Shown here one piece after another: positions 10,333 to 38,842 of a stretch of 64,000 nt of DNA. The DNA is from Candidatus Portnoybacteria bacterium RBG_19FT_COMBO_36_7. GTDB taxonomy: Bacteria; Patescibacteriota; Minisyncoccia; Portnoybacterales; GWB1-42-6. How positions within the stretch are numbered: the first letter of the stretch is position 1; every line of letters begins with the position of its first letter. The stretch spans positions 10,706 through 74,705 of the forward strand of contig MHMW01000021.1 in the NCBI GenBank assembly GCA_001819495.1, read 5' to 3'. The notes under the pieces are model-generated. The model was not told the DNA's origin and searched no databases. It saw only the letters and a list, made by a program, of their open reading frames with translations. Made by a program: the position numbers and the translations under genes.

Positions 10333-10363
<31 letters not shown>

Positions 10364-18259: not shown

Positions 18260-19034
18260 ATAAGGAATCTAAACTATTTTTTGTGTACTTATACAGATTC
18301 GTGATGTTCTCTTCGTTTAAAATCTGAATGGCATAATTCCAATGAAACGAAATCCAATCCCCCACTTCAACATTTGGCAACATTGTTTTATCCCAATTAA
18401 TTTCTTTTTCTTTCATGCTTCCAAACTTTATTTTCTTTCTCCCGATTAATGGGTTATATTCAACAATAATTTTTAACTTTTCATTTTTAAATTTTAACTT
18501 TTTAACCCTCCCCCAGCCAACCCGGCAGATATCTTTTAGATCCGTCCTGCCTGCAAAATCAATGCTGCCGGTTACCGCCCCCAGAACCAGAACATGAAAA
18601 CTGTGGTGCGGTTTGGAAGAAACTGGAATTGCATCAGATTTTTCTTTCGCGGCTTTTCTTGATAATAAACCGGGGCCAGAAAATCTTTTAACAATCAATT
18701 CGCGCAAATCATTAAAAGTTACCTTTTCCAATAACTCATTGCCGAGCCAATAAGCTTCAATTACTTTTTTGTTCAAAGACCCTGTTTTAATTCTGTTTTT
18801 CTTGGCAATCAATTCGTAATAAGGATAGGCTGCCTGAAATCTTTTTAGGGCCGGGATTATATCGGGTATGCCCAATTTCCCCCTGATAAATTCTCTTAAG
18901 TTTTTCTGGTCTTCCGACAGCCCGCAAAGACCCATCTCATTTGGAATCAAGCCATATAGCGCCGCGATTTTAGGCCCTGACATTGATTTTTTCTCCCAGC
19001 AGTTTAATTTTTTCCAATATAAAACGGTACCCAA
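18252..19034 (-). CDS. Hypothetical protein with a C-terminal HypC/HupF-like domain. The alternative start MSGPKIAALYG at 18983 gives a shorter overlap with the upstream gene
   Basis: C-terminal DICRVGWGRV...VGDWISFHWNYAIQIL resembles HypC MC(L/I)(A/G)(I/V)PG...VGDWVLVHVGFAI. The N-terminal ~185 aa have no recognisable family. An in-frame AT-rich repeat insertion (KKLKFKNEKLK) is at 18440-18500. Confidence 0.4.
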   Translation of the reverse strand: MGTVLYWKKLNCWEKKSMSGPKIAALYGLIPNEMGLCGLSEDQKNLREFIRGKLGIPDIIPALKRFQAAYPYYELIAKKNRIKTGSLNKKVIEAYWLGNELLEKVTFNDLRELIVKRFSGPGLLSRKAAKEKSDAIPVSSKPHHSFHVLVLGAVTGSIDFAGRTDLKDICRVGWGRVKKLKFKNEKLKIIVEYNPLIGRKKIKFGSMKEKEINWDKTMLPNVEVGDWISFHWNYAIQILNEENITNLYKYTKNSLDSLYV

Positions 19035-19881
19035 GAATCATTATCAGACCTCCGGTTATCAGGCCGCTTGAAACAATCTCGCCAAAATTTATTTTTCCCG
19101 TTGAAGCGAATGCCAGCAAAGTGGTAATGGGAGATCCTAAAAGCAGAATTGCGGCTGCTGTAGAAACAGGAATATGCCTCAAACCGCTGTACCATGTTAT
19201 GACATAACCGAACAAGATAAAAGAAGCAATCTGGATCCAGAAAACCTGTTCAAAGTTAAGCTGGCTGATTATCGTCAATTGTCCGCTACCGGCCAGAAAA
19301 ATCAAAATCAGAATGGCGCCAAAAAACATTCTGCCCCAGGCAACGATCTTGGGTGACAGGCCTGCCAGCGCGTATTTTGATATAACGCTTTCAACCGCCC
19401 AAAGCAATGTGGCCAAAAATACATAAAAATCGCCGCGGTTAAAAGACAAATGAAGCGCTTTTAGGGCAATCAGATTTCCTGCCAATATCATCAGAGCTCC
19501 AATCAGCATTTCTTTTCTTATTTTTTCGCGCAAAAATATCGAGGCCAAAATCATAGTGTATATAAACATCGTTTTGTGGATAAAAGAACCTTGAGCGGCT
19601 GAGGTAATGGATAAACCTTTGAAAAATAACAAGAATGCGGCGCCGCCGCCCACAAATCCGATTACCAAAAGCATCAGCCACTGCTTTTTTGTCAGCTTGG
19701 CCAGCTGGCGCCATTCTTTGGCCAGCAGCACAAATCCGCTAAAAGCCAAAGCGACCATCACATTTTTTAAAAAAGCAAATAAGTACGGATTGACTCCGCC
19801 AACACCGTATTTGTTGATAAAAATCGAAAATCCCGAAATAATGGCGGTGATAAAAACTAATAATAATCCTTTTTTATTCAT
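18970..19881 (-). CDS. EamA/DMT-family 10-TM transporter
   Basis: Two duplicated 5-TM EamA-like halves. Confidence 0.7.
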   Translation of the reverse strand: MNKKGLLLVFITAIISGFSIFINKYGVGGVNPYLFAFLKNVMVALAFSGFVLLAKEWRQLAKLTKKQWLMLLVIGFVGGGAAFLLFFKGLSITSAAQGSFIHKTMFIYTMILASIFLREKIRKEMLIGALMILAGNLIALKALHLSFNRGDFYVFLATLLWAVESVISKYALAGLSPKIVAWGRMFFGAILILIFLAGSGQLTIISQLNFEQVFWIQIASFILFGYVITWYSGLRHIPVSTAAAILLLGSPITTLLAFASTGKINFGEIVSSGLITGGLIMILGYRFILEKIKLLGEKINVRA

Positions 19882-19990
19882 ACCAGGTAGTGAAAATTCG
19901 ACTTGTTATTGATAGATTATCAATAGCTTAGTCTTTTAATAAAATTACAGATGCCATATAGTAAAATCCGCATTATTTTTTATCCTGCTT
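19873..19990. repeat. Miniature inverted-repeat element, family B. The 21-bp terminal inverted repeats GCCAGGTAGTGAAAATTCGAC / GTCGAATTTCTACTACCTGGC enclose a core with the palindrome ttgatagattatcaa
   Basis: accaggtagtgaaaattcgac ... ggtcgaatttctactacctggc. Other copies are at 32903-32992, 47968-48045 and 48128-48192. Confidence 0.55.
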
Positions 19991-20231
19991 CGCGGGACGG
20001 TCGAATTTCTACTACCTGGCATGTTTTTTTCTTCGCACTTTTAAATAATTTATTAATTTCTTGCGCCTGTTTTTTGCTGATCTTCTGCACTATCACATTA
20101 TTTTGGGTCAGAACCCAGTCGCCTTTTTTGACAGAAATTATGGCGCCGACCTCCTGCGGCCCTTTTTGCGATTTCACCGTCGCAACGCCTTTTTTTAATC
20201 CGATAACTTGTTTTGGAATTGTCAGACACAT
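19980..20231 (-). CDS. hypC: Hydrogenase assembly chaperone HypC/HupF
   Basis: MCLTIPKQVIGL ... GDWVLTQNNVIVQKI; about 83 aa. Confidence 0.7.
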   Translation of the reverse strand: MCLTIPKQVIGLKKGVATVKSQKGPQEVGAIISVKKGDWVLTQNNVIVQKISKKQAQEINKLFKSAKKKTCQVVEIRPSREAG

Positions 20232-20249
20232 ATTCACTGTCGTTCAATT

Positions 20250-20320
20250 TAAAAAATGAAAATGAAAATGAAAATGTAAAAAAGTCATCCAGTTTTTAGT
20301 TTTTAAATTTTAATTTTTAA
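20250..20320. repeat. AT-rich short-period repeat block (aaaatg x4, then ttttaaatttt units)
   Basis: aaaatgaaaatgaaaatgaaaatgtaaaaaagtcatccagtttttagtttttaaattttaatttttaaatt. Confidence 0.4.
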
Positions 20321-20321
20321 A

Positions 20322-21185
20322 TTAAATTGCTCCCTGCACATTTTTTATCTGGTCATATCTGAACACCGGGCCCTGCTTGCAAACATAATGGCTTCCTATC
20401 CCGCAATGCTGGCAGACTCCGACTCCGCAGTGCATCCGCCGTTCAAACGAAAGATAAATATCTTCGTCAGCAAATCCGTATTTTTTCAATTTCTCCAAAA
20501 CGGCTTTATACATCACCGGCGGCCCACAGACAAATGCTCTGGCATCGGCAACAACAGAAACAACCTCAAATAACTTTGTAACCAAGCCAACGCACCCCTT
20601 CCAGTCTTCACAAACTTTATCTATGCTTAATTGAAGATTGACGCCGTCTTTCTGCCAAGATTCGTATTCATTGCGAAATAACATTTCCGAAGGATGCTTG
20701 GCGCCGTAAAATATCTGAATCTTGGCGTCTTTACCTAAAAATTCATTCTTGCCCAAAATCAAAGTCCTTAAAGGTATTAAGCCCAGTCCCCCGACAACTA
20801 TTAATAAATTCTTTTTTTCTTCATTTTTAACTTTAAACTTTGAACTTTGAACTTGAGCGCCAGCAATGGGCCAGCCGATGCCAAAAGGTCCTCTGATGCC
20901 GATTTTATCCCCCACTTTCAAAATATGCATTCTATTGGTCAGTTTCCCTATCGCTCTTATGCAAAGTTCTAAATTTTTTCCTGGCTTGTTGCAGGGCGCA
21001 AAGGGCGCTTCGCCAAACCCAGGCAAAGACAGCATAATGAATTGGCCTGGATAAATTCTGGCATCTTCATCAAATCTTAATTGAAAATGCATCTTGTCAA
21101 AGCCCAATTCAAACAGTTTGATGCCCGGCACATGGTCGGAAATCTTCAGAATTTTTGCCGTTTTGGTCTCGTAAAGATTAAACAT
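20322..21185 (-). CDS. Hydrogenase gamma subunit / AsrB-like FAD-NAD(P)-binding oxidoreductase with a C-terminal [2Fe-2S] cluster
   Basis: FNR-like fold motifs (GPFG, LLIVVGGLGLIPL) and C-terminal RRMHCGVGVCQHCGIG. It carries an in-frame repeat insertion QVQSSKFKVKNEEKK at 20815-20850. Confidence 0.75.
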   Translation of the reverse strand: MFNLYETKTAKILKISDHVPGIKLFELGFDKMHFQLRFDEDARIYPGQFIMLSLPGFGEAPFAPCNKPGKNLELCIRAIGKLTNRMHILKVGDKIGIRGPFGIGWPIAGAQVQSSKFKVKNEEKKNLLIVVGGLGLIPLRTLILGKNEFLGKDAKIQIFYGAKHPSEMLFRNEYESWQKDGVNLQLSIDKVCEDWKGCVGLVTKLFEVVSVVADARAFVCGPPVMYKAVLEKLKKYGFADEDIYLSFERRMHCGVGVCQHCGIGSHYVCKQGPVFRYDQIKNVQGAI

Positions 21186-21195
21186 ATATCCTCCA

Positions 21196-21224
21196 TTGAC
21201 AAATTAAAATAATAGTTTTAATAT
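21196..21224 (+). promoter_or_regulatory. Sigma-70-like promoter for the plus-strand zinc-ribbon gene
   Basis: ttgaca - 17 nt - taatat/tataat, followed by the RBS aaaaggagggtaag. Confidence 0.4.
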
Positions 21225-21251
21225 AATAAAAACGAATAAAAGGAGGGTAAG

Positions 21252-21386
21252 ATGGAAAAGGAGTACTGTGTGAAATGCGGAAAAGAAACACCATACACAA
21301 AGGACGTTCCTATCGACCAAAGAGATTGCTATATTGAAGGAGCTGGTCAGCTCTGTGACGACTGTTTTATCGAGATTTACGGCTAA
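21252..21386 (+). CDS. 44-aa zinc-ribbon protein (CxxC...C..CxxC) on the strand opposite to the hydrogenase operon. It is absent from the supplied ORF track (<60 aa)
   Basis: MEKEYCVKCGKETPYTKDVPIDQRDCYIEGAGQLCDDCFIEIYG*. Strong RBS 8 nt upstream, own promoter and a downstream hairpin terminator. Confidence 0.45.
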   Translation: MEKEYCVKCGKETPYTKDVPIDQRDCYIEGAGQLCDDCFIEIYG

Positions 21387-21389
21387 TAC

Positions 21390-21425
21390 CATCAGCGTTA
21401 TGCGCTATTTTAAAATAAAATAGCG
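21390..21425. terminator. Hairpin terminator (bidirectional) between the hydB 3' end and the zinc-ribbon gene
   Basis: ttatgcgctattttaaaataaaatagcgcattttatttt. Confidence 0.5.
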
Positions 21426-21447
21426 CATTTTATTTTAACAAATGATC

Positions 21448-22485
21448 TTAAGAATTTTCTATGTTTTTTAAAACTTCCGCAATATCAATACCCACAGGGC
21501 AAACGGCCGCACAGCGGCCGCATCCCACGCATCCCATAAAATTGAATTCTTCCGGAATCCTGGCGAATTTATGATAATACCAGAAATGAATCCGCTTGGC
21601 GGTGTCGTTCAGAAACTTATGCCCCAAGGCCACTTCGGAAAATTCCTGATAAAAGCAGGAGTCCCAGCAGCGCTGGCGCTCGCCCTCGCTATTTTCCAGT
21701 CCGGCTTTATCGTCAATCCGAAAACAAAAACAGGTCGGGCAGACTATTGTGCATTTGCCGCATTCAATGCATCGAGCCCCCAGCTCGTCCCAGATTTTTT
21801 GATTGTGCTTATTTTTCAGCTTATCCTGAATCTTTATCATCCGTTCGTCCAGTTTGCCTTCCTTGACCGGCCCGCTGAATTGAATATTAATATAGTCTTT
21901 ATAGCCAAAGTCATTTAAGATTTTTTGCCCAAGCAGGGAGCCGGTAAAAACTGCGTATTCGCCGTTATCCTTTTCTTCATTTATCAGTTTTGCTTTTTTT
22001 GTTCTTATGGCCGGCACCTTGGCAAAACTCATCTCGGCCAAAAAAATATCAAAGCTTAAATGCTCCAAAATATCCTCTTCCAGCGTCATCTCAAAGATAT
22101 TCTGGGACATGTCGGGGATGAGGCTATGGCCGACAATGAGCAGATTGCGTCTCCGCGCCTGATAATAGGGGTCTTTTTCAAAAACCTGGTCATAAAGCAA
22201 AACAGATTTCAAATCCAATAAATTCATGCCTAAAATCGCCGTTTTTTTTGGAGCCAATTCTTCAGCTTTTAAGATATGCCCTTTATATTCAAAAAGTTTT
22301 TCTTTTTCCGGGATAAAAAAGCGCTTAAAGGAATAAAAAGGCACGCCTTTCTCCAGCTTCAAATCTGCGGGGTATTTCAAGTGGTCAACTTCCAGCAGAT
22401 TTTCGCGCTTTTGTGTGCCAAAAACATCCCATCCGTTTTTTTGAAGGAATAAAATAAAATCTTCCAACTTATGTCTGGTTAGCAT
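21448..22485 (-). CDS. Hydrogenase beta subunit / AsrA-like iron-sulfur protein
   Basis: C-terminal CIECGKCTIVCPTCFC and CVGCGRCAAVCPVGID (2x 4Fe-4S ferredoxin motifs). About 345 aa, like sulfhydrogenase HydB. Confidence 0.75.
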   Translation of the reverse strand: MLTRHKLEDFILFLQKNGWDVFGTQKRENLLEVDHLKYPADLKLEKGVPFYSFKRFFIPEKEKLFEYKGHILKAEELAPKKTAILGMNLLDLKSVLLYDQVFEKDPYYQARRRNLLIVGHSLIPDMSQNIFEMTLEEDILEHLSFDIFLAEMSFAKVPAIRTKKAKLINEEKDNGEYAVFTGSLLGQKILNDFGYKDYINIQFSGPVKEGKLDERMIKIQDKLKNKHNQKIWDELGARCIECGKCTIVCPTCFCFRIDDKAGLENSEGERQRCWDSCFYQEFSEVALGHKFLNDTAKRIHFWYYHKFARIPEEFNFMGCVGCGRCAAVCPVGIDIAEVLKNIENS

Positions 22486-23928: not shown

Positions 23929-24552
23929 TTATTGAAGCTTGCTGTCTATTGCCTTTTGAAAATCCTCATAGGGCACGGCGCCGACGACTTCCTCGCCGTT
24001 GATGAAAAATGTTGGCGTTCCTTCAACTCCCTTTTCACCCGCCTTATTATACCAATCCTGACCTGCTGTTTTAGCCGCATCCGAATTATAGCATTGTTCA
24101 AAATTATCGCCCAGCTCTAATGTTTTTGCCGCGTCAAGCACGTCCTGCTCTCCCTTTATGTCGGCCTGGTGATTGAACATATAGTCCTGGAATTGATTGA
24201 ATTTTCCTGCCTGATTGGCGCAATAGCTGGCTCTGGCCAGCTCGTAAGGTGGCAAAATATAAATAATCATTTTAACCTTGCCTTTTGCAATATAATCCTG
24301 CTCTATCTTGGGCAGGGTCTGCAGGGCAAAATTTGCGCAATGAGAGCATAAAAAATTGGTGTATTCTTCTATGACCACGGATGCGTCATCAATTCCCAAA
24401 ACTATTCCCGGCGTCCCCTGGCTAGAAGTGGTTGCCGAATTTGAAATTGAGGCCGGGTTTTCATTTGGTTTTTTTTCGCTGAAATACCAACCCGCGCCTA
24501 TCAAAATCAACGCCAAGATTACCGCGATTATAATAATTCTTTTGTCTGACAT
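23929..24552 (-). CDS. DsbA-family thiol:disulfide oxidoreductase, membrane anchored
   Basis: N-terminal TM helix; FLCSHCANF (CxxC) in a thioredoxin fold. Confidence 0.7.
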   Translation of the reverse strand: MSDKRIIIIAVILALILIGAGWYFSEKKPNENPASISNSATTSSQGTPGIVLGIDDASVVIEEYTNFLCSHCANFALQTLPKIEQDYIAKGKVKMIIYILPPYELARASYCANQAGKFNQFQDYMFNHQADIKGEQDVLDAAKTLELGDNFEQCYNSDAAKTAGQDWYNKAGEKGVEGTPTFFINGEEVVGAVPYEDFQKAIDSKLQ

Positions 24553-27779: not shown

Positions 27780-28292
27780 TTAAAAATAATATCCTTTTAT
27801 TTTACGCTTCAATTTTTCCGGCGAAGGCACAAACATCCATTCATAATAAATGCGCCTGGCGTTCTTAATATGCGGACCTTCAAAATCAAACCAGACTTTT
27901 TTGAAAGCCTCAATCAGGATCTTTCTGGCCCGCCCTATCTCCGGATCGGCTAAATATATATGCTGCCTGTCTATGCCGATTATTACAGAATAATGGCCTT
28001 CATAATGTTCGCCGTACAAAGAGAACCAGTCCACCAAAACCGGCTTTCTTTTTTTCAAAAAATATCTGATATCGCCAATCGTAGAATTCTCTTTCCAGAA
28101 ACCATGCCAGCCCAAAGATTTGACCGCCCCAATTAAACTTTCGGGAGACGCCCCTTCCCGGGCGCTGGTTCCACTTTTTCTGCCTAAGCCCTGTTCGCTG
28201 ATTTTAAATCCGTAAAAATTCAAAATCGTCCGAAGGGCGGCTGGCCCGCAATATCCCGTTTTTGTTTGTTCAAAAATTTTAAGTTTGATCAT
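27780..28292 (-). CDS. Standalone peptidase C39-like (papain-fold) domain protein
   Basis: FEQTKTGYCGPAALRTILNFYG (C39 Q...CGPAAL signature with catalytic Cys) and GHYSVIIGID...DP (catalytic His/Asp). Confidence 0.6.
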   Translation of the reverse strand: MIKLKIFEQTKTGYCGPAALRTILNFYGFKISEQGLGRKSGTSAREGASPESLIGAVKSLGWHGFWKENSTIGDIRYFLKKRKPVLVDWFSLYGEHYEGHYSVIIGIDRQHIYLADPEIGRARKILIEAFKKVWFDFEGPHIKNARRIYYEWMFVPSPEKLKRKIKGYYF

Positions 28293-28362
28293 TTTTTATA
28301 AGCACTTATGTTTTTATTCTTCCCATAAACTTGGATTTTATCATAGCACCAAAAATAAAAAA

Positions 28363-28392
28363 ATAAAAGAGCTTCTTTTAAAAGAAGCTCTC
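28363..28392. terminator. Hairpin terminator
   Basis: aaaagagcttcttttaaaagaagctctc. Confidence 0.45.
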
Positions 28393-28519
28393 GCTAATTA
28401 TCTTTCAATATCTTCTCCGAATTATTTGTGCTTTAGATATTTCATCGCCTGTTCTACCCTTTCTTTACGCGAGCCGGCAATAATAAAGAATTTTATTCCC
28501 ATTTTTTAAGGCAAATAAA

Positions 28520-29758
28520 TTATTCGTATCGCAACGCTTCTATCGGGTTTAATTTTGAGGCACGGCGGGCTGGATAAATGCCGAAAACAATGCCGATGAA
28601 GGCAGCAATGCCAAGGCCAAGCGCTATCCCGAGCAAAGAAATGCCGGTCGGCCAGTCCTGTCCCAGGAAATAACTTATTGTAATCGCCGACAATACAGAT
28701 AATACGATTCCGAGAAATATACCGATTGCCCCGCCAAGACAGGTCAGAATCACTGATTCAAACAAAAACTGCGTCAAAATGTCGCTGTTTTTGGCGCCGA
28801 CTGCTTTGCGCAGGCCAATCTCACGGGTGCGCTCGGTTACCGAAACCAGCATAATATTCATGATGCCGATGCCGCCGACTAACAGAGAAATGGCCGCCAC
28901 CGCTGCCAAAAAATAAGTCATGATGTTCGTAATGGTCTTGACCTGCTCCATTGCGCTGGCTTGAGTGCCAACGCTAAAATCGTCTTTTTCCGGATCGGTT
29001 ATATTATGAGAATTTCTCATCGTTATTTTTATATCCTCTGCCGTCCGATTAACTAAATCTTCTGATTCGGCTTCAACCAAAATATGCTGAAAATATTTTG
29101 TGCCAAAGATATACTGCTGAGCTGTTGTCCAGGGAATAAGGACAACATCATCAAAATTAACCATTGAAACCTGTCCTTTTTCAGATAATATTCCAATCAC
29201 CCTGTAATTCTTGCTGTTTATTTTTATTTTTTGTCCCATTGCCTCCGAAGAGCCGAAAAGCTCTTCTTTTACCTTTGAGCCTATAACAACTACATCGGCA
29301 AGATTTTTCACGTCATCATCATCCAGGGCTCTTCCTTTATCAATTTCTATGTCATATATCCTTATAAAACCGCTCCCGATTCCATAGATATTGACACTGT
29401 AAGTATCGGTCTGCGAAATAGCATTGGCGCTGCCAAACAACAAAGGCTCTACGTTTATAGCATAAGGAACATTCTCTTTTTTCTTCAGGGCAATCAGATC
29501 TTTTTCTTTCAAAGAGTCGCTGAATATCTGCATAACATCGTTAAACCCCTTGGGTTCGCGGCCTGGAGCTATCTCAATAACCTTGGCGCCCATTCCCTGG
29601 ATCTGTCCCAAAATTAAGTTTTGCGCTCCCTGCCCCAGCGACATAACAAAAATTATAGACATGATGCCTATTACAATTCCCAGCATAGTCAAAGCTGTCC
29701 TGCCTTTATTGACCTTGAGGGCCCTGGTGGCGCTTTTAAGAATATCTTTTGATGACAT
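28520..29758 (-). CDS. ABC transporter permease, MacB/FtsX family with a periplasmic MacB_PCD domain
   Basis: N-terminal TM helix, large periplasmic domain, three C-terminal TM helices (FtsX-type). Confidence 0.8.
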   Translation of the reverse strand: MSSKDILKSATRALKVNKGRTALTMLGIVIGIMSIIFVMSLGQGAQNLILGQIQGMGAKVIEIAPGREPKGFNDVMQIFSDSLKEKDLIALKKKENVPYAINVEPLLFGSANAISQTDTYSVNIYGIGSGFIRIYDIEIDKGRALDDDDVKNLADVVVIGSKVKEELFGSSEAMGQKIKINSKNYRVIGILSEKGQVSMVNFDDVVLIPWTTAQQYIFGTKYFQHILVEAESEDLVNRTAEDIKITMRNSHNITDPEKDDFSVGTQASAMEQVKTITNIMTYFLAAVAAISLLVGGIGIMNIMLVSVTERTREIGLRKAVGAKNSDILTQFLFESVILTCLGGAIGIFLGIVLSVLSAITISYFLGQDWPTGISLLGIALGLGIAAFIGIVFGIYPARRASKLNPIEALRYE

Positions 29759-29767
29759 TTTTTACTT

Positions 29768-30328
29768 TTATCTTTTTACCAGTTTGCGCTTTGCGTTAAA
29801 ATAAGTTACTAAATGTTTTCTCTTGTTCTTGGTGATGTATAAAGCGAAGTAAATAACCGCCAAAACACAAAAATTTATAGCCAAAATATAATTATTGTCT
29901 CCCCAGTTAATGGAATCAATACTAAAAGAAGACAGAGGATATAGAAATGGTGTAGCGAAATATTTGACGCTGTGAAAAGGAATATCAACTAAAATATGAA
30001 TGCCCCAGGCAGCCAGCGGCCACCATGGTTTTTTCAGGATCAGCCAAACAGCGATAAAAGCGATGGCAAAAAAAACAAGACTATGGCTAAAAGAATAAAG
30101 AGTCGGAATTATTTCTGGTCCCACCGGATTCAAATGTACCCTCGTGCTGTCAACGAAAGAAATACCCTTGAATATGGAAATTACGACATAAATGCCGTTT
30201 GAAAAAAGATCCGGCGCCACGGAAAAAATTATCGGCCACCAGATTTTTTTCTCTTTTCTATAAATTAAGCCTGTCCAGAGGCTGTGAGAAAAAATATCCA
30301 CAATATTAATGTAAAATTTAAAATGCAA
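29768..30328 (-). CDS. Hypothetical polytopic membrane protein inserted between the ABC permease and ATPase genes
   Basis: 5-6 hydrophobic helices; no recognisable motifs. Confidence 0.45.
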   Translation of the reverse strand: MHFKFYINIVDIFSHSLWTGLIYRKEKKIWWPIIFSVAPDLFSNGIYVVISIFKGISFVDSTRVHLNPVGPEIIPTLYSFSHSLVFFAIAFIAVWLILKKPWWPLAAWGIHILVDIPFHSVKYFATPFLYPLSSFSIDSINWGDNNYILAINFCVLAVIYFALYITKNKRKHLVTYFNAKRKLVKR

Positions 30329-30440
30329 AAATTAAAATGACAGATCAAAATTAAAAATTAGCTAATGCTAAAATCATTTTAAATTTTGCCCATTTTGCAT
30401 TTTACATTGTCGTTTTTAATTTTGATATTTGATTCTTGAA

Positions 30441-31151
30441 TTATTTAAGCTTTCCATCTCCTGCCCTGCGCCTGTGATTGACTATTTCATCTCCGATAAC
30501 GCAACCGTCTTTCATCTTAATGATCCGCTTGGCAAAACGCGCGGTTTCTGTTTCGTGGGTGACGACAACAATCGTGTGGCCTTTTTCGTTCAATTCCTCC
30601 AAAACCTGCATTATCTGCTCGCCTCCCTTTGAATCTAGGTTGCCGGTCGGCTCATCCGCCAAAATAAGCAAAGGATTATTGACCAGAGCCCTGGCAATCG
30701 CCACTCTCTGCTGTTCACCGCCGGACAACTGACTTGGCATATGATTTGCCCGATGCGACAAGCCAACAGCCGCAATCGCTGACTTAGCCGTATCCCCAAT
30801 CTTTTGTTTGTTCTCCTTATAAAAAAGAGGTAGCATAACGTTATCAAACACGCTGGTCCGCGGCAACAGATTATAGCTTTGAAAAACAAATCCAATTTTT
30901 TCATTCCTGATTTCAGCCAGCTGATCATCAGAAAATCTGGCAAAATTCTGGCCCTCAAACAAATACTGGCCGTATGTCGGCCGGTCTAAAAATCCTAATA
31001 TATGCATCAAAGTTGATTTTCCGCATCCCGAAGGCCCCATGATTGCGACAAATTCGCCTTTCTCAATTCTAAGGCTGATGCCGCAAAGGGCTTTGGTGAC
31101 TATTCCATCGCCGTATTCTTTGATAATATCCTTTGTCTCAATTATGACCAT
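30441..31151 (-). CDS. ABC transporter ATP-binding protein (MacB/LolD-like)
   Basis: GPSGCGKSTL (Walker A), LSGGEQQRVAIARAL (signature), LILADEPTGNLD (Walker B). Confidence 0.85.
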   Translation of the reverse strand: MVIIETKDIIKEYGDGIVTKALCGISLRIEKGEFVAIMGPSGCGKSTLMHILGFLDRPTYGQYLFEGQNFARFSDDQLAEIRNEKIGFVFQSYNLLPRTSVFDNVMLPLFYKENKQKIGDTAKSAIAAVGLSHRANHMPSQLSGGEQQRVAIARALVNNPLLILADEPTGNLDSKGGEQIMQVLEELNEKGHTIVVVTHETETARFAKRIIKMKDGCVIGDEIVNHRRRAGDGKLK

Positions 31152-31157
31152 CCTATT

Positions 31158-32819
31158 TTATTTGCTTATGGCAACGGCCTGTCCTTCAATAAGGCCGGAA
31201 ATTATTTCTACTTCTCCCTCGTTGTTTCTAATGCCGGTCTGAACCTCTTTTTCTTTTATCTGACCATTTTCCATGATTTTTACGATTTTGACATTGTTAT
31301 TTTGCTCAATTGCCCGCAAAGGAATAATTAAAGCGTTCTCGTGCCGGCTCGTTTCAATTTCAAGATTAGCCGTCATGCCTGCCTTTACTTTTGAATCGGT
31401 GCCGGACAAGCCGATAGTTATTTTGTAATAGACAACTCCCTGCACGACTGTCTGTGCCGGGTCAATTTTTATCACCTTGCCCTGCCACTTTTCATTTTCT
31501 CTGAAAGCGTCAAAAGTTATCTCTGCCGGGTTCCCCGCGATTATTTTAGCAATGTCTGATTCAGCGATATCTGATTTAATCTCAAAATCAGACAAACTGT
31601 TCATGGAAACAGCTGTCTGGCTGGAAAGCGCCATTTCTCCTTTTTCAAAAGGGATATCGGTGATTATGCCGTTGATGGGAGCGGTCAGACTTTTTTGGGC
31701 AACTTGATTTCTAGCCTGATTCAAATTGGCTTGCGCCTGCTTGACCTGCGCAGTGTAAAGGTCAATATCGGATTGACGAGGACTGGCCAGCTTGAGCGCC
31801 AGCTGACTTTGCGCAGTTGCCAAAGTTCCTTCTGCGCTGCTAAAAGCCGCCTGAGCCGTGTTTATGTTTGTTTGATTTGTGTTTTTTTGAGAAATGATCG
31901 TCTGCTGGGCAGCAACAAGGTTGGTCAAAGCGGTGTTCAAATTTGTCCGCGCAGCTGATATACTTGTTTTAAAAGCGTCCAGCTCTGTCTGGGTCAAGCT
32001 TGAAGATATTACCACCGAAAGCAAAACGTCATAAGTTCGGTTAAGCGCATTTATGGAAAAAGTGGCAGTCGTTTTTAATCTTTCCAGCGCGCTGTCGATG
32101 TCAGATTCGTTATAAGTTGAAGCTGCTGCGTTGATTGTCGGCAAAACCGAATTATAATCAAGCTCAGCCAGATATTTAAGATTTCTTGCATCTATCAAAG
32201 CCTGCGCATTAGAAGCTGTCTGATTAATATTCAATTCGGTAGAATCCAAAGTGTCTTTGTTTGTCTGTAAAGATGTCTGTGTTGTCAGCAAAGAAGAGCT
32301 CAACGTTCTTTGAGCATCCTCGTATACATGAGTGAGAGAAGCGGCCGCGGTTGCCTGCGCATTGGCTAAAGTTTTTTGCGCTTCTTCCAGATTTTTCTGG
32401 GCGTTGGCAACTGCAGTTTGCGCCACAGCGATGTCTTCGGCCGAAGCGCCGGCCAAAAGTTGAGAAAACTTTGCCTGGACAATTGCCAAAGCCGCTTCGT
32501 AGTTTTGAATCTGAAAAGCCAAATCGCTTGAATCCTGCGACATCAGAACCTGGCCGGCAGAAACTTTGTCGCCGACATTGGCTTTTATTTCTGTAATGCG
32601 GCCGGAGGCGACAAATTGAAGATTGATCTGGCTGGCCGGCTGGGCCGAGCCGGTGGCCGAAACCGTCTGAGCAATATCCCCTTTTTTGACCTTCACGAAA
32701 TCATAATCCGGTTCTTTCCCGCTTTGGTAACTCTGATAAAGCAAACCCAAATCGATTGCCAGCAATATAAAAAGACCGAGAATTATCAATTTTCTATGCT
32801 GCATAATGAAGTTTTTCAT
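31158..32819 (-). CDS. HlyD/MacA-family periplasmic adaptor (membrane fusion protein) with a long coiled-coil hairpin
   Basis: N-terminal TM helix, long Q/A-rich coiled coil, C-terminal beta-barrel/MP domain. Confidence 0.7.
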   Translation of the reverse strand: MKNFIMQHRKLIILGLFILLAIDLGLLYQSYQSGKEPDYDFVKVKKGDIAQTVSATGSAQPASQINLQFVASGRITEIKANVGDKVSAGQVLMSQDSSDLAFQIQNYEAALAIVQAKFSQLLAGASAEDIAVAQTAVANAQKNLEEAQKTLANAQATAAASLTHVYEDAQRTLSSSLLTTQTSLQTNKDTLDSTELNINQTASNAQALIDARNLKYLAELDYNSVLPTINAAASTYNESDIDSALERLKTTATFSINALNRTYDVLLSVVISSSLTQTELDAFKTSISAARTNLNTALTNLVAAQQTIISQKNTNQTNINTAQAAFSSAEGTLATAQSQLALKLASPRQSDIDLYTAQVKQAQANLNQARNQVAQKSLTAPINGIITDIPFEKGEMALSSQTAVSMNSLSDFEIKSDIAESDIAKIIAGNPAEITFDAFRENEKWQGKVIKIDPAQTVVQGVVYYKITIGLSGTDSKVKAGMTANLEIETSRHENALIIPLRAIEQNNNVKIVKIMENGQIKEKEVQTGIRNNEGEVEIISGLIEGQAVAISK

Positions 32820-34777: not shown

Positions 34778-35059
34778 GTTCAGGCCAGCGAAAAGATTCA
34801 AAAAAGAATCAATTCGCTGGCTTTTTTTTATTTGTCTGTCAAAAATTCCAAGTCGTAGGCGCTGGATTTTTTGGTACAGACAAATAACCCCGCACTTATT
34901 TTGACTCTCTTGAAATCATCTTTTTAAAGGTTAACTTAGTCTATCTAAAAATTTTGCAGACCGCGTGGCCGAATAGACCAAACTTTTTTGGGCGAAGCGG
35001 TCTGCCATGGGTTATTTTGCAAAATAAGTGCCGGGGCAATCTCCGAATAAAATCAAAAG

Positions 35060-35095
35060 CTAACGAAAGCAATTCCGTTAGCTTTTTAATTCAAA
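35060..35095. terminator. Bidirectional hairpin terminator
   Basis: aaaagctaacgaaagcaattccgttagcttttt. Confidence 0.5.
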
Positions 35096-35110: not shown

Positions 35111-35443
35111 TTATGCCTGTAAGAAGCTTGCCACCAATTCCCAGATTCCAAAGGCCAATATCGCAACGCCAACACCCACCAAGCCGTAAATGAAAGCTCT
35201 TTTAGCTTTTCCGATTTTTTCCTCATCTCCCGCAGCAGTCATATAAAGAAATGCGGCATAAAGTATTACGAAAATACCTACTATAAAGATAATCGCAGCA
35301 AACCATGTTAAAATGGTATTTAACAAATCTAGAATTCCCCCTCTGGTCAAAGTAACACTCGGTAACGTGCCTGTCTGAGCCAAAGCAACTGCCGGCAGAA
35401 TTTGAGCTGCCAAAATCGCTCCCAGATATTTAATTTTTCTCAT
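35111..35443 (-). CDS. TrbC/VirB2-like pilin paralog 1 (signal peptide plus two TM helices)
   Basis: Signal peptide MRKIKYLGAILAAQILPAVALAQ; conserved LYAAFLYMTAAGDEEKIGKAKRAFIYGLVGVGVAI. Confidence 0.5.
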   Translation of the reverse strand: MRKIKYLGAILAAQILPAVALAQTGTLPSVTLTRGGILDLLNTILTWFAAIIFIVGIFVILYAAFLYMTAAGDEEKIGKAKRAFIYGLVGVGVAILAFGIWELVASFLQA

Positions 35444-35522
35444 TTTCTATCTCACCTCCTTTCAAATAAAAATTTTAATACTAATATTTATCAATTGGTA
35501 AAATTGCGATGTTTTTTTATCG

Positions 35523-35864
35523 TCAAGTCAGCAAGCTCTCAACCGCGTCCCAAATTCCATAAGCAAGCATGGCGACAATAATACCGACAATACCATAAAT
35601 AAAGGTTTTTTTAGCTTTCTCAATTCTGCTGTCGTCCCCTCCTGATGTCATGTATAAAAATGCGGCGTAAAGAATACAGGCAATACCTAGTATAAAAATA
35701 ATTTGGGCAAACCATGTTTTAATCTGATCAAATAACTCAACAAGTCTATCTGCCGTTAAATCAATCTGCGGCGGCTCATTGCCTTGGGCTGAAGCAATCA
35801 CGGGCAGCATTAGAATCGTTATGACAGAAATTATTAATAAATATCTTAAAATTTTTTTCTTCAT
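35523..35864 (-). CDS. TrbC/VirB2-like pilin paralog 2
   Basis: LYAAFLYMTSGGDDSRIEKAKKTFIYGIVGIIVAM. Confidence 0.5.
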   Translation of the reverse strand: MKKKILRYLLIISVITILMLPVIASAQGNEPPQIDLTADRLVELFDQIKTWFAQIIFILGIACILYAAFLYMTSGGDDSRIEKAKKTFIYGIVGIIVAMLAYGIWDAVESLLT

Positions 35865-35899
35865 ATGTTTATTGTTTCCTTCTTATTATTTATTATTTT

Positions 35900-36313
35900 T
35901 TAGTTTACCTCTAAAATACTTTTAATTAAAGTGATGAAACCGGCGCCAATCACAATTATCGCCACTCCGACAATCGTATAAGTGATGGCTTTTTTGGCTT
36001 TTTTAATCTTTTCTTCATCGCCGCCGGAAGTCAAAAAGAGAAATCCGGCGTATAAAACCATAATGGCTGCCAAAGGAACCATAATTTTATAAAACCATTC
36101 GGCTATCTTTTTGACTAAACCCTCAAAAGAATCAGTGTTTATGGGATTAGGAATTTCATATTTTCCCGTGCTACCTTGCTGCGCTAAAATAGGCTGCATA
36201 ATTAGTGCGCAGCCAAGTAGAGATAGAAATAATATTATAAAAATTTTTATCGATTTATTCAAATTCATAAAAATTAAATTTTTAATTTTTATCCGCTGCA
36301 TGTAAACTTCCAC
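35900..36313 (-). CDS. TrbC/VirB2-like pilin paralog 3
   Basis: LYAGFLFLTSGGDEEKIKKAKKAITYTIVGVAIIV. Confidence 0.5.
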   Translation of the reverse strand: MEVYMQRIKIKNLIFMNLNKSIKIFIILFLSLLGCALIMQPILAQQGSTGKYEIPNPINTDSFEGLVKKIAEWFYKIMVPLAAIMVLYAGFLFLTSGGDEEKIKKAKKAITYTIVGVAIIVIGAGFITLIKSILEVN

Positions 36314-36768
36314 CAGCTCTGGGGATTAAAGTCCCCGACGCTTTTGCCGATAACCTGAATGATGCTGTTGACAATCAGCCATGAAGCAAAAACAAAAATC
36401 AAGCCGATTACAACATTAATAAATATCTTTTTTGCCTGGGTAACCCTTTCCTCGGATCCGCCCGAAGTAAGAAAAATTGCTCCGGCAAAAACAATCAGAA
36501 GCCCGGCCACCGGCGGCGCCAGTCTGAAGGCAATAAAAGCGAAAATGTTTACGACAAGCGAGAAAAAAGCGCAAAGGTCGCATCCCTTATCGCCACATAC
36601 CGGCACAATCCGACAATTGGTGGTTAATTTAGTCATTACATCTTTGCATTCCGGCGTCTGGGCGTTTGCTAAAGAAGGATATAAAAATAATGAAAATCCG
36701 ATGATCAATAACAATGGCAATATTATAATAATTTTTTTCTTCATTAAGGTCTGCCTCATGAATTTCAA
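36289..36768 (-). CDS. TrbC/VirB2-like pilin paralog 4 with an extra Cys-rich insertion (7 Cys). The probable start is MKKKIIIIL at 36744
   Basis: VFAGAIFLTSGGSEERVTQAKKIFINVVIGLIFV plus TPECKDVMTKLTTNCRIVPVCGDKGCDLCAF. Confidence 0.45.
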   Translation of the reverse strand: MKFMRQTLMKKKIIIILPLLLIIGFSLFLYPSLANAQTPECKDVMTKLTTNCRIVPVCGDKGCDLCAFFSLVVNIFAFIAFRLAPPVAGLLIVFAGAIFLTSGGSEERVTQAKKIFINVVIGLIFVFASWLIVNSIIQVIGKSVGDFNPQSWWKFTCSG

Positions 36769-36782: not shown

Positions 36783-38225
36783 TCATTTCTTTAATTTCTT
36801 CTCGATTAAGTTGCTTACTTGGCTGGCCGCCTGGCTGATTGCCCGCGAAGCTTCCAGCTGTCCGTTATTGACCGCGTTTATCATTTCGTCAAAAATCGCG
36901 GAAATCGCCAGGTTGTCAACCTGATACCAGGAACGAGCTGATAACGATTGCTTGGCATAAACACCAAGCTCAAGGCCTTTTTGCTGATAATCAACCAGGT
37001 CCCGCCGGGCGGTCGGCCGCTCGGTCTTGTCCAGATATTGCTGGGCTTGCGTCTTTTGGGTCAGCCACTTAAGAAAAACCCAGGCGTATGTTTGTTTATT
37101 TGCGTCGGCGCTGGCCGAAACCGTCACCCCCCAATAATTGGGGTATGTCACATCAATTTGCGAGTCTTTGGGCTGGGGAACGGGAGCAATGCCGAATCGC
37201 AGATGCGGCTGCTTGGCTTTGATAGTTGAAATATGAAAAGAATAATTGATCATCATCGCCGATTTTCCCTGCGAAAATGCGTCAATTGAATAATCCAGAT
37301 TGTTATTCCAAGTATAGCTCTTTTTGCTCGGGTCGGCAAAATTTGTGTAAAATTGCAGCGAATTCAAACCCGGCTGATAAAGCTGGCCTTGGGCAAGCAC
37401 TGATTTGGCAAAAGTCGCTTCATCTTTTTTTTCATTGACCATCTCCGCCCCTGTTTGCAACATCAGCATCATCAGGATATCGGAGCCGCGATTGATATTT
37501 TTGACCGTGCCGATGCTGGCACCCGACATTAAAATATTATTGCTCTCATCTTTTTTCGTTAATTTCTCCACTGTCTCATTAAATTCATTCCAGTCTTTGG
37601 GCGGAGTGGATATCCCTGCAGAATTGAATATGTCTTTATTCCAGTAAAGAGCCAGTGTGTCAACAAAAAGTGGCAAAGCATAAATTCTTTCAGGCAAGGC
37701 ATTGCCCTTTTCGTCTGCTCCTCCATAAATAAAATCTTGCGCCGCCACATCAACGAAAGAATCCTTGAATTCTCTGACGGTCAAAGAATCTTCTCCGCTG
37801 TACTTTGAGGCGGACGGAATCGGAGCTGTTTTATCAACGTGCTTTGGCAGCCAGGAATTTTCAATCATAAAAATATCCGGTCCCCTGCCTGCCGCCAAGG
37901 CATCAACTAAATCTCTTTCGTAATCTGCGTAGGTTTTTTTATAATAAGTTATCTTAACTTTTCCGTAAGTCTGGTTAAAACTTTCAATCAGGGGCTTAAA
38001 AGCGTCGGAATCATCAAAAACGCCCCAAAACACAAGCTCTTCCTTTCCTTTTGTCAGGTCTTCTTTGCAGCCTGGCAAAGCAGCGCTTAAGCTCCCCAGA
38101 AGGCTCAATGCCACAACCGGAGCCACAATATTTAAAACAATTTTTTTGTTCGCTGCGTTTTTTTTAATTTTACGGAAAAGTCCCATTTTATTCGTAGTTA
38201 TTCGCGAGCTCGCCCGCCTTGTCAT
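36783..38225 (-). CDS. ABC transporter extracellular solute-binding protein (family 1, sugar/oligosaccharide type), lipoprotein-like
   Basis: N-terminal signal/lipobox-like LSAALPGC; typical SBP length and alternating alpha/beta composition. Confidence 0.65.
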   Translation of the reverse strand: MTRRASSRITTNKMGLFRKIKKNAANKKIVLNIVAPVVALSLLGSLSAALPGCKEDLTKGKEELVFWGVFDDSDAFKPLIESFNQTYGKVKITYYKKTYADYERDLVDALAAGRGPDIFMIENSWLPKHVDKTAPIPSASKYSGEDSLTVREFKDSFVDVAAQDFIYGGADEKGNALPERIYALPLFVDTLALYWNKDIFNSAGISTPPKDWNEFNETVEKLTKKDESNNILMSGASIGTVKNINRGSDILMMLMLQTGAEMVNEKKDEATFAKSVLAQGQLYQPGLNSLQFYTNFADPSKKSYTWNNNLDYSIDAFSQGKSAMMINYSFHISTIKAKQPHLRFGIAPVPQPKDSQIDVTYPNYWGVTVSASADANKQTYAWVFLKWLTQKTQAQQYLDKTERPTARRDLVDYQQKGLELGVYAKQSLSARSWYQVDNLAISAIFDEMINAVNNGQLEASRAISQAASQVSNLIEKKLKK

Positions 38226-38300
38226 CGGAATATCACAAAGACTGGACAGCGAGCAAAATTCGTATTAATTCATAACCCAACTCAGAATACCGCTAATCAT
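38196..38300. repeat. Family-D repeat (attcgcgagctcgcccgcc ... cagaataccgctaat); the second copy is at 43955-44075
   Basis: Shared blocks gagctcgcccgcct and cagaataccgctaat(c/t)at, in the same orientation at both loci. Confidence 0.4.
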
Positions 38301-38842
38301 TAAAATTTTCTGAAAATCAAACCATAATGAAAATTTCCGGCGTCAAATTCTCTGTCAAAAGTGAATTTTTTTTCAGTTGCCGCCTGGCTTGCCTCGCCCT
38401 GCGAAATCCGCCAGCCGCTGTCAGAAGTTAAAGTCTTGCCAGAGGGCTGCCAGTCTATAATCACCATTTTGCCGCCGCTTTTTAAAACCCGCCTGGCTTC
38501 TCTGATAATATCAGCTTTTTTATTGGACTGGAAAAGGACATTTGCCAGTAAAGCCATATCGCATGAATTATCAGGCAGCTTTGAGCCGCCGGGAATTTCC
38601 AGATTCCCGCGCAAAGTTTCAATATTGGCAAGCTCCGCCTGAACCGCTTTTCCTTTCACTTCCTCAAGCGCTTCGTTCAAGATATCTACCGCAAAGACCT
38701 GCCCTTCTTTACCAACCATTTTGGCCAAAGGAATAGAAAAATAGCCGTGGCCGCAGCCAAAATCGGCAATCCTTGAAGGAGTCTGAATTTCAAGCTGATC
38801 TAAAACTTTTTGAGGGTTAAGAAATCCTCCTGTTCCTGCCAT
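38300..38842 (-). CDS. Class I SAM-dependent methyltransferase
   Basis: IADFGCGHGYFSIPLA (motif I), VFAVDI (motif II). Confidence 0.75.
   Translation of the reverse strand: MAGTGGFLNPQKVLDQLEIQTPSRIADFGCGHGYFSIPLAKMVGKEGQVFAVDILNEALEEVKGKAVQAELANIETLRGNLEIPGGSKLPDNSCDMALLANVLFQSNKKADIIREARRVLKSGGKMVIIDWQPSGKTLTSDSGWRISQGEASQAATEKKFTFDREFDAGNFHYGLIFRKF

What the first reader, a model, noticed from the sequence alone, without database searches (positions are those of the whole stretch)
35111..36768. Array of four divergent TrbC/VirB2-like pilin paralogs; the fourth carries a 7-Cys insertion
Four consecutive minus-strand genes (110-159 aa) each have a signal peptide, two hydrophobic helices and a shared loop motif, L(Y/F)(A/L)TSGGD(E/D)(E/S)(K/R)IxKAKK(A/T)(F/I)xYxIVG. 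This matches the topology of conjugative or T4SS-like pilins reported as abundant in this lineage.

The paralogs are only ~40-50% identical. Paralog 4 adds a Cys-rich segment, TPECKDVMTKLTTNCRIVPVCGDKGCDLCAF, in its extracellular part.

No VirB4/VirB6/VirD4 genes are within the window. This may be a stand-alone pilin-diversity locus for surface variation or host attachment. An ABC substrate-binding protein and a methyltransferase follow it.
Basis: partly seen in the sequence, partly recalled or inferred. Interest (0 to 1): 0.55.

Follow-up and report, generated by a model that had tools for sequence, protein, structure and literature searches.

The report
VirB2-like pilin gene array, Patescibacteria
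Four neighbouring small genes in this ultra-small (Portnoybacteria) bacterium encode VirB2-like secretion-system pilins; such arrays were described in this phylum in 2023-2025, so the locus is real but an ordinary example, with a few undescribed details.

Summary
Four consecutive minus-strand genes at 35111-36768 each encode a signal peptide plus a two-helix membrane hairpin. All four score above Pfam's curated cut-off for T4SS_pilin (PF18895), and two also pass for TrbC/VirB2.

Corrections:
- Paralog 4 has 6 cysteines, not 7.
- Paralog identity is 23-52%, not 40-50%.
- Paralogs 3 and 4 probably start further in, giving 133 and 151 aa.

[quoted passage not shown] It holds no VirB4, VirB6 or VirD4, but a published table scores this assembly VirB4-positive. 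The same 2025 paper reports 441 such VirB2 arrays in Patescibacteria, so the kind is known.

Added here:
- The array follows a conserved order, A (cysteine-bearing), B, then C×n. It always sits behind gyrA, a methyltransferase and an orphan solute-binding lipoprotein.
- Orthologues (55-80% identity) are more alike than paralogues, and dN/dS is 0.12-0.40. The set is old and constrained, not a fast-varying cassette.
- Four of paralog 4's cysteines are family-wide. Their covariation implies a disulfide joining the N-terminal and C-terminal ends. Only 16 residues, carrying 2 cysteines, are a lineage-specific insertion.
- A related genome carries, at the same locus, a single open reading frame fusing seven pilin modules.

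The parts
36289..36744 (-). It has a signal peptide (residues 1-28), a Cys-rich exposed N-terminus, a two-helix hairpin and a C-terminal tail ending in WWKFTCSG. The mechanical ORF extends to 36768.
   Evidence: PF18895 at 41.7 bits against a cut-off of 26.6. Identical to the NCBI protein A2Y98_00605. AF2 model has pLDDT 78.6 with helices 57-93 and 98-133.
36571..36660 (-). Cys-rich exposed N-terminal segment of type A (residues 29-58, 5 Cys). Residues 29-44 (window 36613-36660, QTPECKDVMTKLTTNC) form the lineage-specific extension. Residues 45-58 (RIVPVC..GC..C) form the family-wide motif.
   Evidence: Translation. Alignment of 33 homologues. Cys covariation in 120 homologues.
35900..36301 (-). 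Pilin type B (paralog 3), 133 aa, or 122 aa from the ATG at 36268. It carries an EIPNP...FEGLV..IAEWF N-terminal motif. Its start overlaps the end of type A.
   Evidence: PF18895 at 45.0 bits and PF04956 at 34.9 bits, both above cut-off. Ribosome-binding site GGTGGA. Orthologues are 44-55% identical.
35523..35864 (-). Pilin type C, copy 1 (paralog 2), 113 aa.
   Evidence: PF18895 at 50.6 bits and PF04956 at 34.2 bits. 69% identical to L003 gene 4.
35111..35443 (-). Pilin type C, copy 2 (paralog 1), 110 aa.
   Evidence: PF18895 at 42.1 bits. NF045849 at 44.8 bits against a cut-off of 40. Strong GGAGGTGA ribosome-binding site. 80% identical to L003 gene 5.
35055..35086 (-). Terminator-like hairpin (14-bp stem followed by a T-rich tail), 25 nt after the last pilin gene. 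It marks the probable end of the transcription unit.
   Evidence: Consensus scan. No such site lies between the solute-binding-protein gene and the array.
36783..38225 (-). Orphan SBP_bac_1 solute-binding protein with a lipobox-like LPGC. It lies directly upstream of type A (gap of 14-38 nt) and is a conserved neighbour of the array in every related locus examined.
   Evidence: Pfam hit at 5e-29. Adjacency seen in L003-L008 and L014-L016.
38300..38842 (-). Class I SAM methyltransferase, a conserved upstream neighbour (order gyrA, MT, SBP, pilins).
   Evidence: Pfam. Synteny.
23929..24552 (-). DsbA-like thioredoxin with a signal or anchor sequence. It is a candidate oxidase for the pilin disulfides. 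This link is inferred and not demonstrated.
   Evidence: PF13462 at 1.9e-29 and PF01323 at 1.4e-14.

Best explanation
The locus is a chromosomal array of four VirB2-like (Pfam T4SS_pilin) pilin genes in a Portnoybacteria (Patescibacteria, class Paceibacteria) genome. It is probably transcribed together with the upstream solute-binding-protein gene and ends at a terminator after the last pilin.

Proposed mechanism:
1. Each product is exported by Sec, and its signal peptide is cut after AxA.
2. The mature 80-120-residue protein sits in the membrane as a helical hairpin. Both ends face outward and the conserved charged loop (SGG-D/E-E-K/R...AKK) faces inward.
3. The subunits are then taken up by the monoderm-type T4SS (VirB4 and partners), which this genome encodes elsewhere. 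They are built into a pilus-like or conduit structure used in contact with a host cell.

The four genes are three old, distinct classes and not interchangeable variants. Type A comes first and is stapled by disulfides, one of which ties the N-terminal end of helix 1 to the C-terminal tail. Here it carries an extra 16-residue, 2-Cys surface extension. Type B is second. Type C is last and variable in copy number, with two copies here.

Shown: family membership, topology, synteny, orthology, purifying selection and cysteine covariation.
Inferred: export and cleavage, disulfide pairing, dependence on the T4SS, filament formation, co-assembly of the three types and operon structure.
For: - Family: PF18895 above its cut-off for all four proteins. 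PF04956 above cut-off for P2 and P3. NF045849 above cut-off for P1.
- Topology: hydropathy and the AF2 hairpin.
- Machinery: the assembly is listed as VirB4-positive in Table S1 of PMC12102498.
- Precedent: 441 VirB2 arrays of 2-11 genes are reported in Patescibacteria, with mean identity 25% and maximum 54% (PMC12102498). The pilin array of S. epibionticum is essential (PMC10633639; PMC12857230).
- Order: the A-B-C order and the gyrA-MT-SBP context recur in L003, L004, L005, L008, L015 and L016.
- Orthology: orthologues are 55-80% identical against 23-52% for paralogues.
- Selection: dN/dS is 0.12-0.40. The exposed N-terminal segment is the most variable region.
- Cysteines: C50 and C55 are present in 120 of 120 homologues. 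C58 and C149 are both present in 107 and both absent in 12, with one exception (Fisher p = 1e-15).
- Oxidase: a DsbA-like protein is encoded in the window.
- Transcription unit: a terminator-like hairpin follows P1, and none lies between the SBP gene and P4.
- Fusion: a seven-module pilin ORF sits at the homologous locus, L016, which argues that the modules act together.
Against: - No T4SS machinery gene lies within 35 kb upstream or 27 kb downstream in the window, or within 10 kb in L003-L005, L008 and L014-L016 (6 kb on each side of the SBP gene in L014 and L015).
- VirB4 in this genome rests on a published table. I could not reach the other contigs to check it.
- No T4SS pilus has been seen in any Patescibacterium. 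The reviews call it a possibility only.
- Structure searches gave only generic helical hairpins, and no solved pilin was matched by sequence.
- The disulfide pairing comes from presence/absence covariation among related sequences. It does not come from coordinates or chemistry.
- dS is about 1, near saturation, so the dN/dS values are rough.
Confidence: 0.62

Rival explanations
1. Variation cassette. The paralogues are alternative major pilins. They would be expressed singly or in changing mixtures to vary the surface or to match different host strains, as proposed for the VirB2 paralogue arrays of Bartonella and Anaplasma and suggested for Patescibacteria.
For: - This is the authors' suggestion in PMC12102498.
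- The exposed N-terminal segments are the least conserved parts, at 23-68% identity against 52-83% for the core.
- Type-C copy number varies from 1 to 5 between genomes.
- The Cys-rich N-terminal decoration of type A varies from 0 to 12 extra cysteines.
Against: - The three types have stable positions and orthologues across genomes whose solute-binding proteins are only 38-50% identical.
- Gene-wide dN/dS is below 0.4.
- No repeats or inversion sites suggesting switching were looked for or noticed.
- The genes sit within 0-80 nt of each other and share a single terminator, which suggests co-expression.
- The fused seven-module ORF forces co-expression in one relative.
Confidence: 0.2
2. Membrane-resident role without a pilus. 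The proteins would act as VirB2-like channel or platform components of the T4SS, as in Gram-negative systems that need VirB2 but make no pilus. Alternatively they would act as small membrane partners of the adjacent orphan solute-binding lipoprotein in an uptake or adhesion module.
For: - The solute-binding-protein gene lies directly upstream in all nine loci examined, and in L008 it overlaps the first pilin gene.
- No importer permease or ATPase lies nearby.
- VirB2 is needed by some T4SSs that form no pilus (PMC12857230).
- The fused multi-module proteins would be awkward to polymerise as canonical pilins.
Against: - gyrA and the methyltransferase are equally conserved neighbours, so the linkage may only reflect conserved gene order.
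- The more distant type-A pilins are singletons with no solute-binding protein beside them.
- Nothing in the family profile points to a transporter role.
Confidence: 0.13
3. Remnant of an integrated conjugative element. The pilin genes would be left over from a mobile T4SS and no longer tied to a working machine.
For: - The family also occurs on Mycoplasma ICEs (NF045849).
- No machinery genes lie nearby.
Against: - The flanks are housekeeping genes with conserved synteny (gyrA, ftsH, S1, leuS), and GC content is even at 0.39-0.46.
- The ORFs are intact, under purifying selection, and conserved across many genomes.
- No integrase, relaxase or repeat boundary was found in the window.
Confidence: 0.03

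Closest known systems
VirB2-like pilin arrays of Patescibacteria (six-gene essential array in the T4SS cluster of Southlakia epibionticum ML1; Sec-secreted array of Nanosynbacter lyticus TM7x; 441 arrays catalogued in PMC12102498)
   Same: Same Pfam family (PF18895/PF04956). The genes are small, tandem, sequence-divergent (here 23-52% identity, against a mean of 25% and a maximum of 54% reported) and chromosomal. No relaxase lies nearby, the cell is monoderm, and this genome was in that study's dataset.
   Different: - This array is not next to virB4 (at least 27 kb away), whereas the ML1 array lies inside the T4SS cluster.
- The class is Paceibacteria, whereas arrays were reported as most abundant in Microgenomatia and Saccharimonadia.
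- The searchable papers do not mention the conserved A-B-C order, the disulfide pattern, the solute-binding-protein neighbour or the fused multi-module form.
TrbC/VirB2 pilins of Gram-negative T4SSs (Agrobacterium T-pilin, RP4 TrbC, F TraA)
   Same: Signal peptide, two hydrophobic helices joined by a short charged loop, and both termini outside. P2 and P3 pass the PF04956 threshold.
   Different: - There is no outer membrane, and no VirB5, VirB7, VirB9 or VirB10 partners are expected.
- P1 and P4 fall below the PF04956 threshold.
- T-pilin, TrbC and TrhA are joined head to tail by a peptide bond (general knowledge; PMC12037004 title). Type A here appears instead to link its two ends by a disulfide, which is inferred.
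- No solved pilin is matched by sequence or fold search.
Mbov_0395 / ICE_MMCAP2_0565 pilin-like conjugal transfer protein of Mycoplasma ICEs (NCBIfam NF045849)
   Same: A small two-helix protein from monoderm bacteria. P1 scores 44.8 bits against a cut-off of 40.
   Different: - P2, P3 and P4 score below the cut-off (28.6, 29.2 and 14.3 bits).
- The Mycoplasma protein is a single gene on a mobile element, not a chromosomal array.
VirB2 paralogue arrays of Bartonella and Anaplasma phagocytophilum
   Same: Tandem, divergent VirB2 genes in a host-dependent bacterium.
   Different: Those are diderm pathogens of animals, in which variation is tied to immune evasion. Here the paralogues are old, with conserved orthologues, and the presumed partner is another microbe.

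Membership tests
Pfam PF18895 T4SS_pilin | Score at or above the curated gathering threshold (26.6 bits) | tested here: met
   P1 42.1, P2 50.6, P3 45.0, P4 41.7 bits. Public homologues carry the same precomputed domain.
Pfam PF18895 T4SS_pilin | Small protein with a cleavable N-terminal signal and a two-helix transmembrane hairpin joined by a short polar loop | tested here: met
   Hydropathy segments and AxA motifs. The AF2 model of P4 has helices 2-25, 57-93 and 98-133. No dedicated signal-peptide predictor was available.
Pfam PF04956 TrbC/VirB2 | Score at or above the gathering threshold (27.9 bits) | tested here: inconclusive
   P2 (34.2) and P3 (34.9) pass. P1 (21.3) and P4 (17.1) do not.
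NCBIfam NF045849 Mbov_0395 pilin-like conjugal transfer protein | Score at or above the cut-off (40 bits) | tested here: inconclusive
   P1 (44.8) passes. P2 (28.6), P3 (29.2) and P4 (14.3) do not.
Patescibacteria T4SS pilin array (as in PMC12102498 and Wang et al. 2023) | Two or more VirB2-like genes in tandem on a Patescibacteria chromosome | tested here: met
   Four adjacent genes. The organism is Portnoybacteria. The 16S rRNA gene and the housekeeping context agree.
Patescibacteria T4SS pilin array (as in PMC12102498 and Wang et al. 2023) | VirB4-type ATPase present in the same genome | not testable with these tools
   Only the 64-kb window was available. The published Table S1 lists GCA_001819495.1 as 'Presence of VirB4: Yes'. 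The source contig is not in the look-up index, and the genome is not among the GTDB representatives scanned.
Patescibacteria T4SS pilin array (as in PMC12102498 and Wang et al. 2023) | Pilin genes located near virB4 (true for 1135 of 1948 assemblies; not obligatory) | tested here: not met
   No CagE_TrbE_VirB, AAA_10, TraG or VirB6 hit among the window ORFs that were scanned; five small ORFs were not scanned. No Walker A motif in the unannotated ORFs checked.
Conjugative or T4SS pilus subunit (functional sense) | Polymerises into an extracellular filament in a T4SS-dependent way | not testable with these tools
   There is no experimental evidence in any Patescibacterium. The reviews describe it as a possibility.
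Cyclic T-pilin/TrbC subclass | Head-to-tail peptide cyclisation by a TraF-type peptidase | not tested
   No TraF-like peptidase was searched for. Cys covariation suggests a disulfide link between the two ends of type A.

The most novel reading that the evidence does not exclude
The Portnoybacteria array encodes three ancient, non-redundant pilin classes that co-assemble into one heteromeric T4SS filament. Class A would be covalently closed by an N-to-C disulfide, a chemical substitute for the peptide cyclisation of T-pilin and TrbC, and would display a variable Cys-rich knob. The always-adjacent orphan solute-binding lipoprotein would be a working partner, acting for example as a receptor or cargo-capture element for uptake from the host. 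The fused seven-module 'polypilin' at the same locus in a relative would then be a covalent version of that heteromer.
Probability: 0.15. Interest if true: 0.65.

Novelty: new member of a known kind. Interest (0 to 1): 0.3.

Why it matters
Patescibacteria depend on host microbes. In the one tractable species, the T4SS and its pilin array are essential for growth on the host. What the pilins build is still unknown.

This locus adds no new kind of system. It does offer a clean comparative handle:
- a conserved A-B-C gene order;
- a disulfide pattern that chemistry can test;
- a constant solute-binding-protein neighbour;
- naturally fused multi-pilin proteins at the same locus.

These features make 'one heteromeric structure versus interchangeable variants' a testable question. 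They also point to residues and constructs for structural work.

Tried and rejected
- **Profile search of PDB sequences.** It returned only weak EfpA transporter noise.
- **Retrieving the rest of the source genome.** The exact-protein look-up of P0001 is not on record. The genome-contig scan returned only 4 loci and not the source assembly. VirB4 presence therefore rests on the published table.
- **Supplementary table of the 2025 paper.** The stored file is cut after Table S1. I could not confirm that this very array is among the 441 arrays.
- **NCBIfam on unannotated window ORFs.** No hits.
- **dN/dS between paralogues.** Not attempted, because 23-52% amino-acid identity is far beyond saturation. 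Orthologue dN/dS was done instead, but dS is about 1.
- **Integrated-element hypothesis.** Rejected on conserved housekeeping synteny and even base composition.
- **Artefact check on the multi-module proteins.** I considered that they came from stop-codon read-through. L016 gene 3 translates with table 11 without an internal stop.
Full report
**1. What is in the sequence**

The ORF list shows four consecutive minus-strand ORFs at 35111-35443 (110 aa, P1), 35523-35864 (113 aa, P2), 35900-36313 (137 aa, P3) and 36289-36768 (159 aa, P4).
- P1 and P2 have clear ribosome-binding sites at their first ATG.
- P3 has a GGTGGA site 7 nt before the ATG at 36301, giving 133 aa. This matches the gene called on a public contig that carries the identical sequence. 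A 122-aa call also exists.
- P4 most likely starts at the ATG at 36744, giving 151 aa. That product is identical to the public NCBI protein.
- Each protein has an N-terminal hydrophobic segment ending in AxA|Q or LA|Q. Two long hydrophobic segments follow, separated by a short charged loop around (S/A)GG(D/S)(E/D)x(K/R)...AK(K/R).
- Pairwise identity is 23-52%. Only P1-P2 reaches about 50%.
- P4 has six cysteines, not seven. Five lie in the quoted N-terminal segment (36571-36660) and one lies three residues from the C-terminus.

**2. Family**

All four proteins exceed Pfam's curated threshold for PF18895 T4SS_pilin, scoring 41.7-50.6 bits against 26.6. P2 and P3 also exceed the TrbC/VirB2 threshold. 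P1 exceeds the NCBIfam cut-off for the Mycoplasma ICE 'pilin-like conjugal transfer protein'. An HMM built from the array finds no further member in the window. A profile of the four paralogues finds 52,705 proteins at E ≤ 0.001 among 1.84 billion cluster representatives, so the family is very large. NCBI already names some members 'pilin'.

**3. Organism and context**

[quoted passage not shown] The window is ordinary chromosome. It carries a 16S rRNA gene, tRNAs, leuS, tsaD, gyrA, ftsH, S1, nusA, RNase Y, clpP, trigger factor, an H+-pyrophosphatase and a [NiFe]-hydrogenase cluster.

No ORF scanned hits a VirB4, VirD4, VirB6 or relaxase family; five small ORFs of 100-157 aa were left unscanned. 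The unannotated ORFs that were checked have no Walker A motif. Table S1 of PMC12102498 lists GCA_001819495.1 (this organism, 761,679 bp, 732 CDSs, class Paceibacteria) with 'Presence of VirB4: Yes'. I could not verify this independently.

**4. What is already known**

- Wang et al. [quoted passage not shown] They noted that Gram-positive T4SSs normally lack a pilus.
- Quiñonero-Coronel et al. 2025 (PMC12102498) searched 3,035 Patescibacteria genomes with PF04956 and PF18895. They found VirB2-like pilins in 1,948 VirB4-positive assemblies, located near virB4 in 1,135 of them. They also found 441 arrays of 2-11 pilin genes, with a mean identity of 25% and a maximum of 54%. They suggested a role in adapting to different hosts.
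- A 2025 review calls a pilus an 'intriguing possibility'.

The kind of feature is therefore published, and the source genome was in that dataset.

**5. Comparative anatomy (new here)**

Related loci were reached through homologues of P4, homologues of the solute-binding protein and one profile hit. They show the same block. In transcription order it reads: (S1, MBL-fold hydrolase), gyrA, SAM methyltransferase, SBP_bac_1 lipoprotein, the pilin array, then a divergently oriented SPFH/Band_7 gene.

Within the array the order is conserved.
- A cysteine-bearing type A comes first.
- A type B with an (E/S)I(P/x)NP...F(E/D)xL(V/I)..IA.W N-terminus comes second.
- One to five type-C genes follow.

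The window has A-B-C-C. The other loci are L003 A-B-C-C-C, L004 A-B-C, L005 A-B-C-C, L008 A-B-C, L015 A-B-(B/C) and L014 B-(B/C).

Orthologues in the same position are 55-80% identical, whereas paralogues within a genome are 23-52%. Nei-Gojobori estimates against L003 give dN/dS of 0.15 (A), 0.40 (B), and 0.23 and 0.12 (C). The neighbouring genes give 0.04-0.11. dS is about 0.8-1.8, so these values are approximate. Divergence is concentrated in the signal peptide and the exposed N-terminal segment, while the hairpin core is 52-83% identical.

A terminator-like hairpin follows P1, and none lies between the SBP gene and P4. In L008 the methyltransferase, SBP and type-A genes overlap end to end.

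More distant type-A pilins are singletons at a different conserved site, between the CCA-adding enzyme and rpsO-NYN-pnp. In one case this is about 7 kb from ksgA and an SLT_3 lytic transglycosylase.

**6. The cysteines**

In an alignment of 33 P4 homologues, C50, C55, C58 and C149 (numbering of the 151-aa protein) are invariant or nearly so. They lie in the motif (R/G)(I/L)VP(E)C-x4-11-C-x-(L/F)-C-(D/H)-F and in a C-terminal W-x-x-F-x-C.

Among 120 profile hits:
- C50 and C55 are always present.
- C58 and C149 are both present in 107, both absent in 12, and split in only one (Fisher p = 1e-15, not corrected for phylogeny).

This implies disulfides C50-C55 and C58-C149. The second would tie the start of helix 1 to the C-terminal tail on the outer face. 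C33 and C44 occur together only in the seven closest relatives, inside a 16-residue extension (QTPECKDVMTKLTTNC), and probably form a third disulfide.

The N-terminus of type A is a hot spot for such decoration. L016's type A has 16 Cys, and L004's type B carries a 4-Cys C-terminal tail. A DsbA-like protein is encoded at 23929-24552. The 2025 paper does not discuss cysteines in the pilins.

**7. Structure**

**8. Fused pilins**

The highest-scoring representatives for the paralogue profile are long proteins with 2-13 separately matched pilin modules behind a single signal peptide. Of the top 150, 136 have two or more modules, but this ranking favours multi-module proteins. The best one, P0241 (606 aa, seven modules), has no internal stop with table 11. 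It sits at the homologous locus (gyrA, MT, SBP, A, B, polypilin, C×5, then Band_7) in L016. This suggests that multiple modules work together. The papers read do not mention such fusions.

**9. Mechanism and rivals**

Best reading (0.62): these are Sec-exported VirB2-like subunits of three old classes, used by the T4SS encoded elsewhere to build a pilus-like or conduit structure for host contact. The N-terminal segments and the Cys knob would be surface-exposed.

Rivals:
- A variation cassette (0.20). This is disfavoured by the conserved orthologues, purifying selection and apparent co-transcription. It is favoured by the variable exposed segments and the type-C copy number.
- A membrane-resident role, possibly with the adjacent solute-binding protein (0.13).
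- A remnant of a mobile element (0.03).

**10. Verdict**

The finding is real and its family assignment is correct. It belongs to a class published in 2023-2025, so interest is modest. The conserved A-B-C order, the inferred N-to-C disulfide, the constant solute-binding-protein neighbour and the fused polypilin at the same locus are small additions. They would need experiments to matter.

Noticed in passing
L016:10001-11821 (homologous locus in a related metagenome contig); also P0241-P0390: Single ORFs fuse 2-13 T4SS_pilin modules behind one signal peptide ('polypilins'). The best one (606 aa, 7 modules, no internal stop) sits inside the same gyrA-MT-SBP-pilin locus, together with 7 further pilin genes. 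The papers read do not mention this.
   Followed up: partly
window 36783-38225 (-): An orphan SBP_bac_1 solute-binding lipoprotein has no importer permease or ATPase in 64 kb. It lies directly upstream of the pilin array in all nine related loci examined. Functional linkage cannot be separated from conserved gene order.
   Followed up: partly
window 9388-11144 (-): The 16S rRNA gene spans 1757 nt against a 1533-nt model, implying an insertion of about 220 nt. No 23S or 5S gene lies in the window, so the rRNA genes are unlinked.
   Followed up: no
window 16203-22485 (-): Cytoplasmic [NiFe]-hydrogenase-like cluster: large subunit, Oxidored_q6 small subunit, a DHODB-type Fe-S/NAD-binding subunit and a Fer4_22 protein. 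A DUF6390 gene and an EamA transporter gene are interleaved.
   Followed up: no
L006:3739-7560: The gyrA ORF of Portnoybacteria CG08 is 1273 aa, against 827 aa in the window. It matches in two segments, so it probably carries an intein.
   Followed up: no
window 27780-32819 (-): HlyD/MacA-like adaptor, ABC ATPase, a 186-aa membrane protein and a MacB-type permease, plus a stand-alone Peptidase_C39. This may be a peptide or bacteriocin export module. The adaptor-ABC-MacB module is conserved next to the pilin locus in L004 and L005; in L003 the adaptor and ABC ATPase are present but the locus ends before a MacB gene could be seen.
   Followed up: no
window 6740-8332 (+) and 6741-6823 (-): A 530-aa ORF with about ten hydrophobic segments has no family hit in Pfam or NCBIfam and lies next to a GT2 glycosyltransferase. 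Its mechanical start overlaps a tRNA on the other strand, so the real start lies further in.
   Followed up: no
L009, L010, L012, L013: In other Paceibacteria lineages a single type-A (4-Cys) pilin sits at a conserved site between the CCA-adding enzyme and rpsO-NYN-pnp. In L012 an SLT_3 (PF18896) lytic transglycosylase next to ksgA follows about 7 kb downstream, and may mark the edge of the T4SS cluster.
   Followed up: partly
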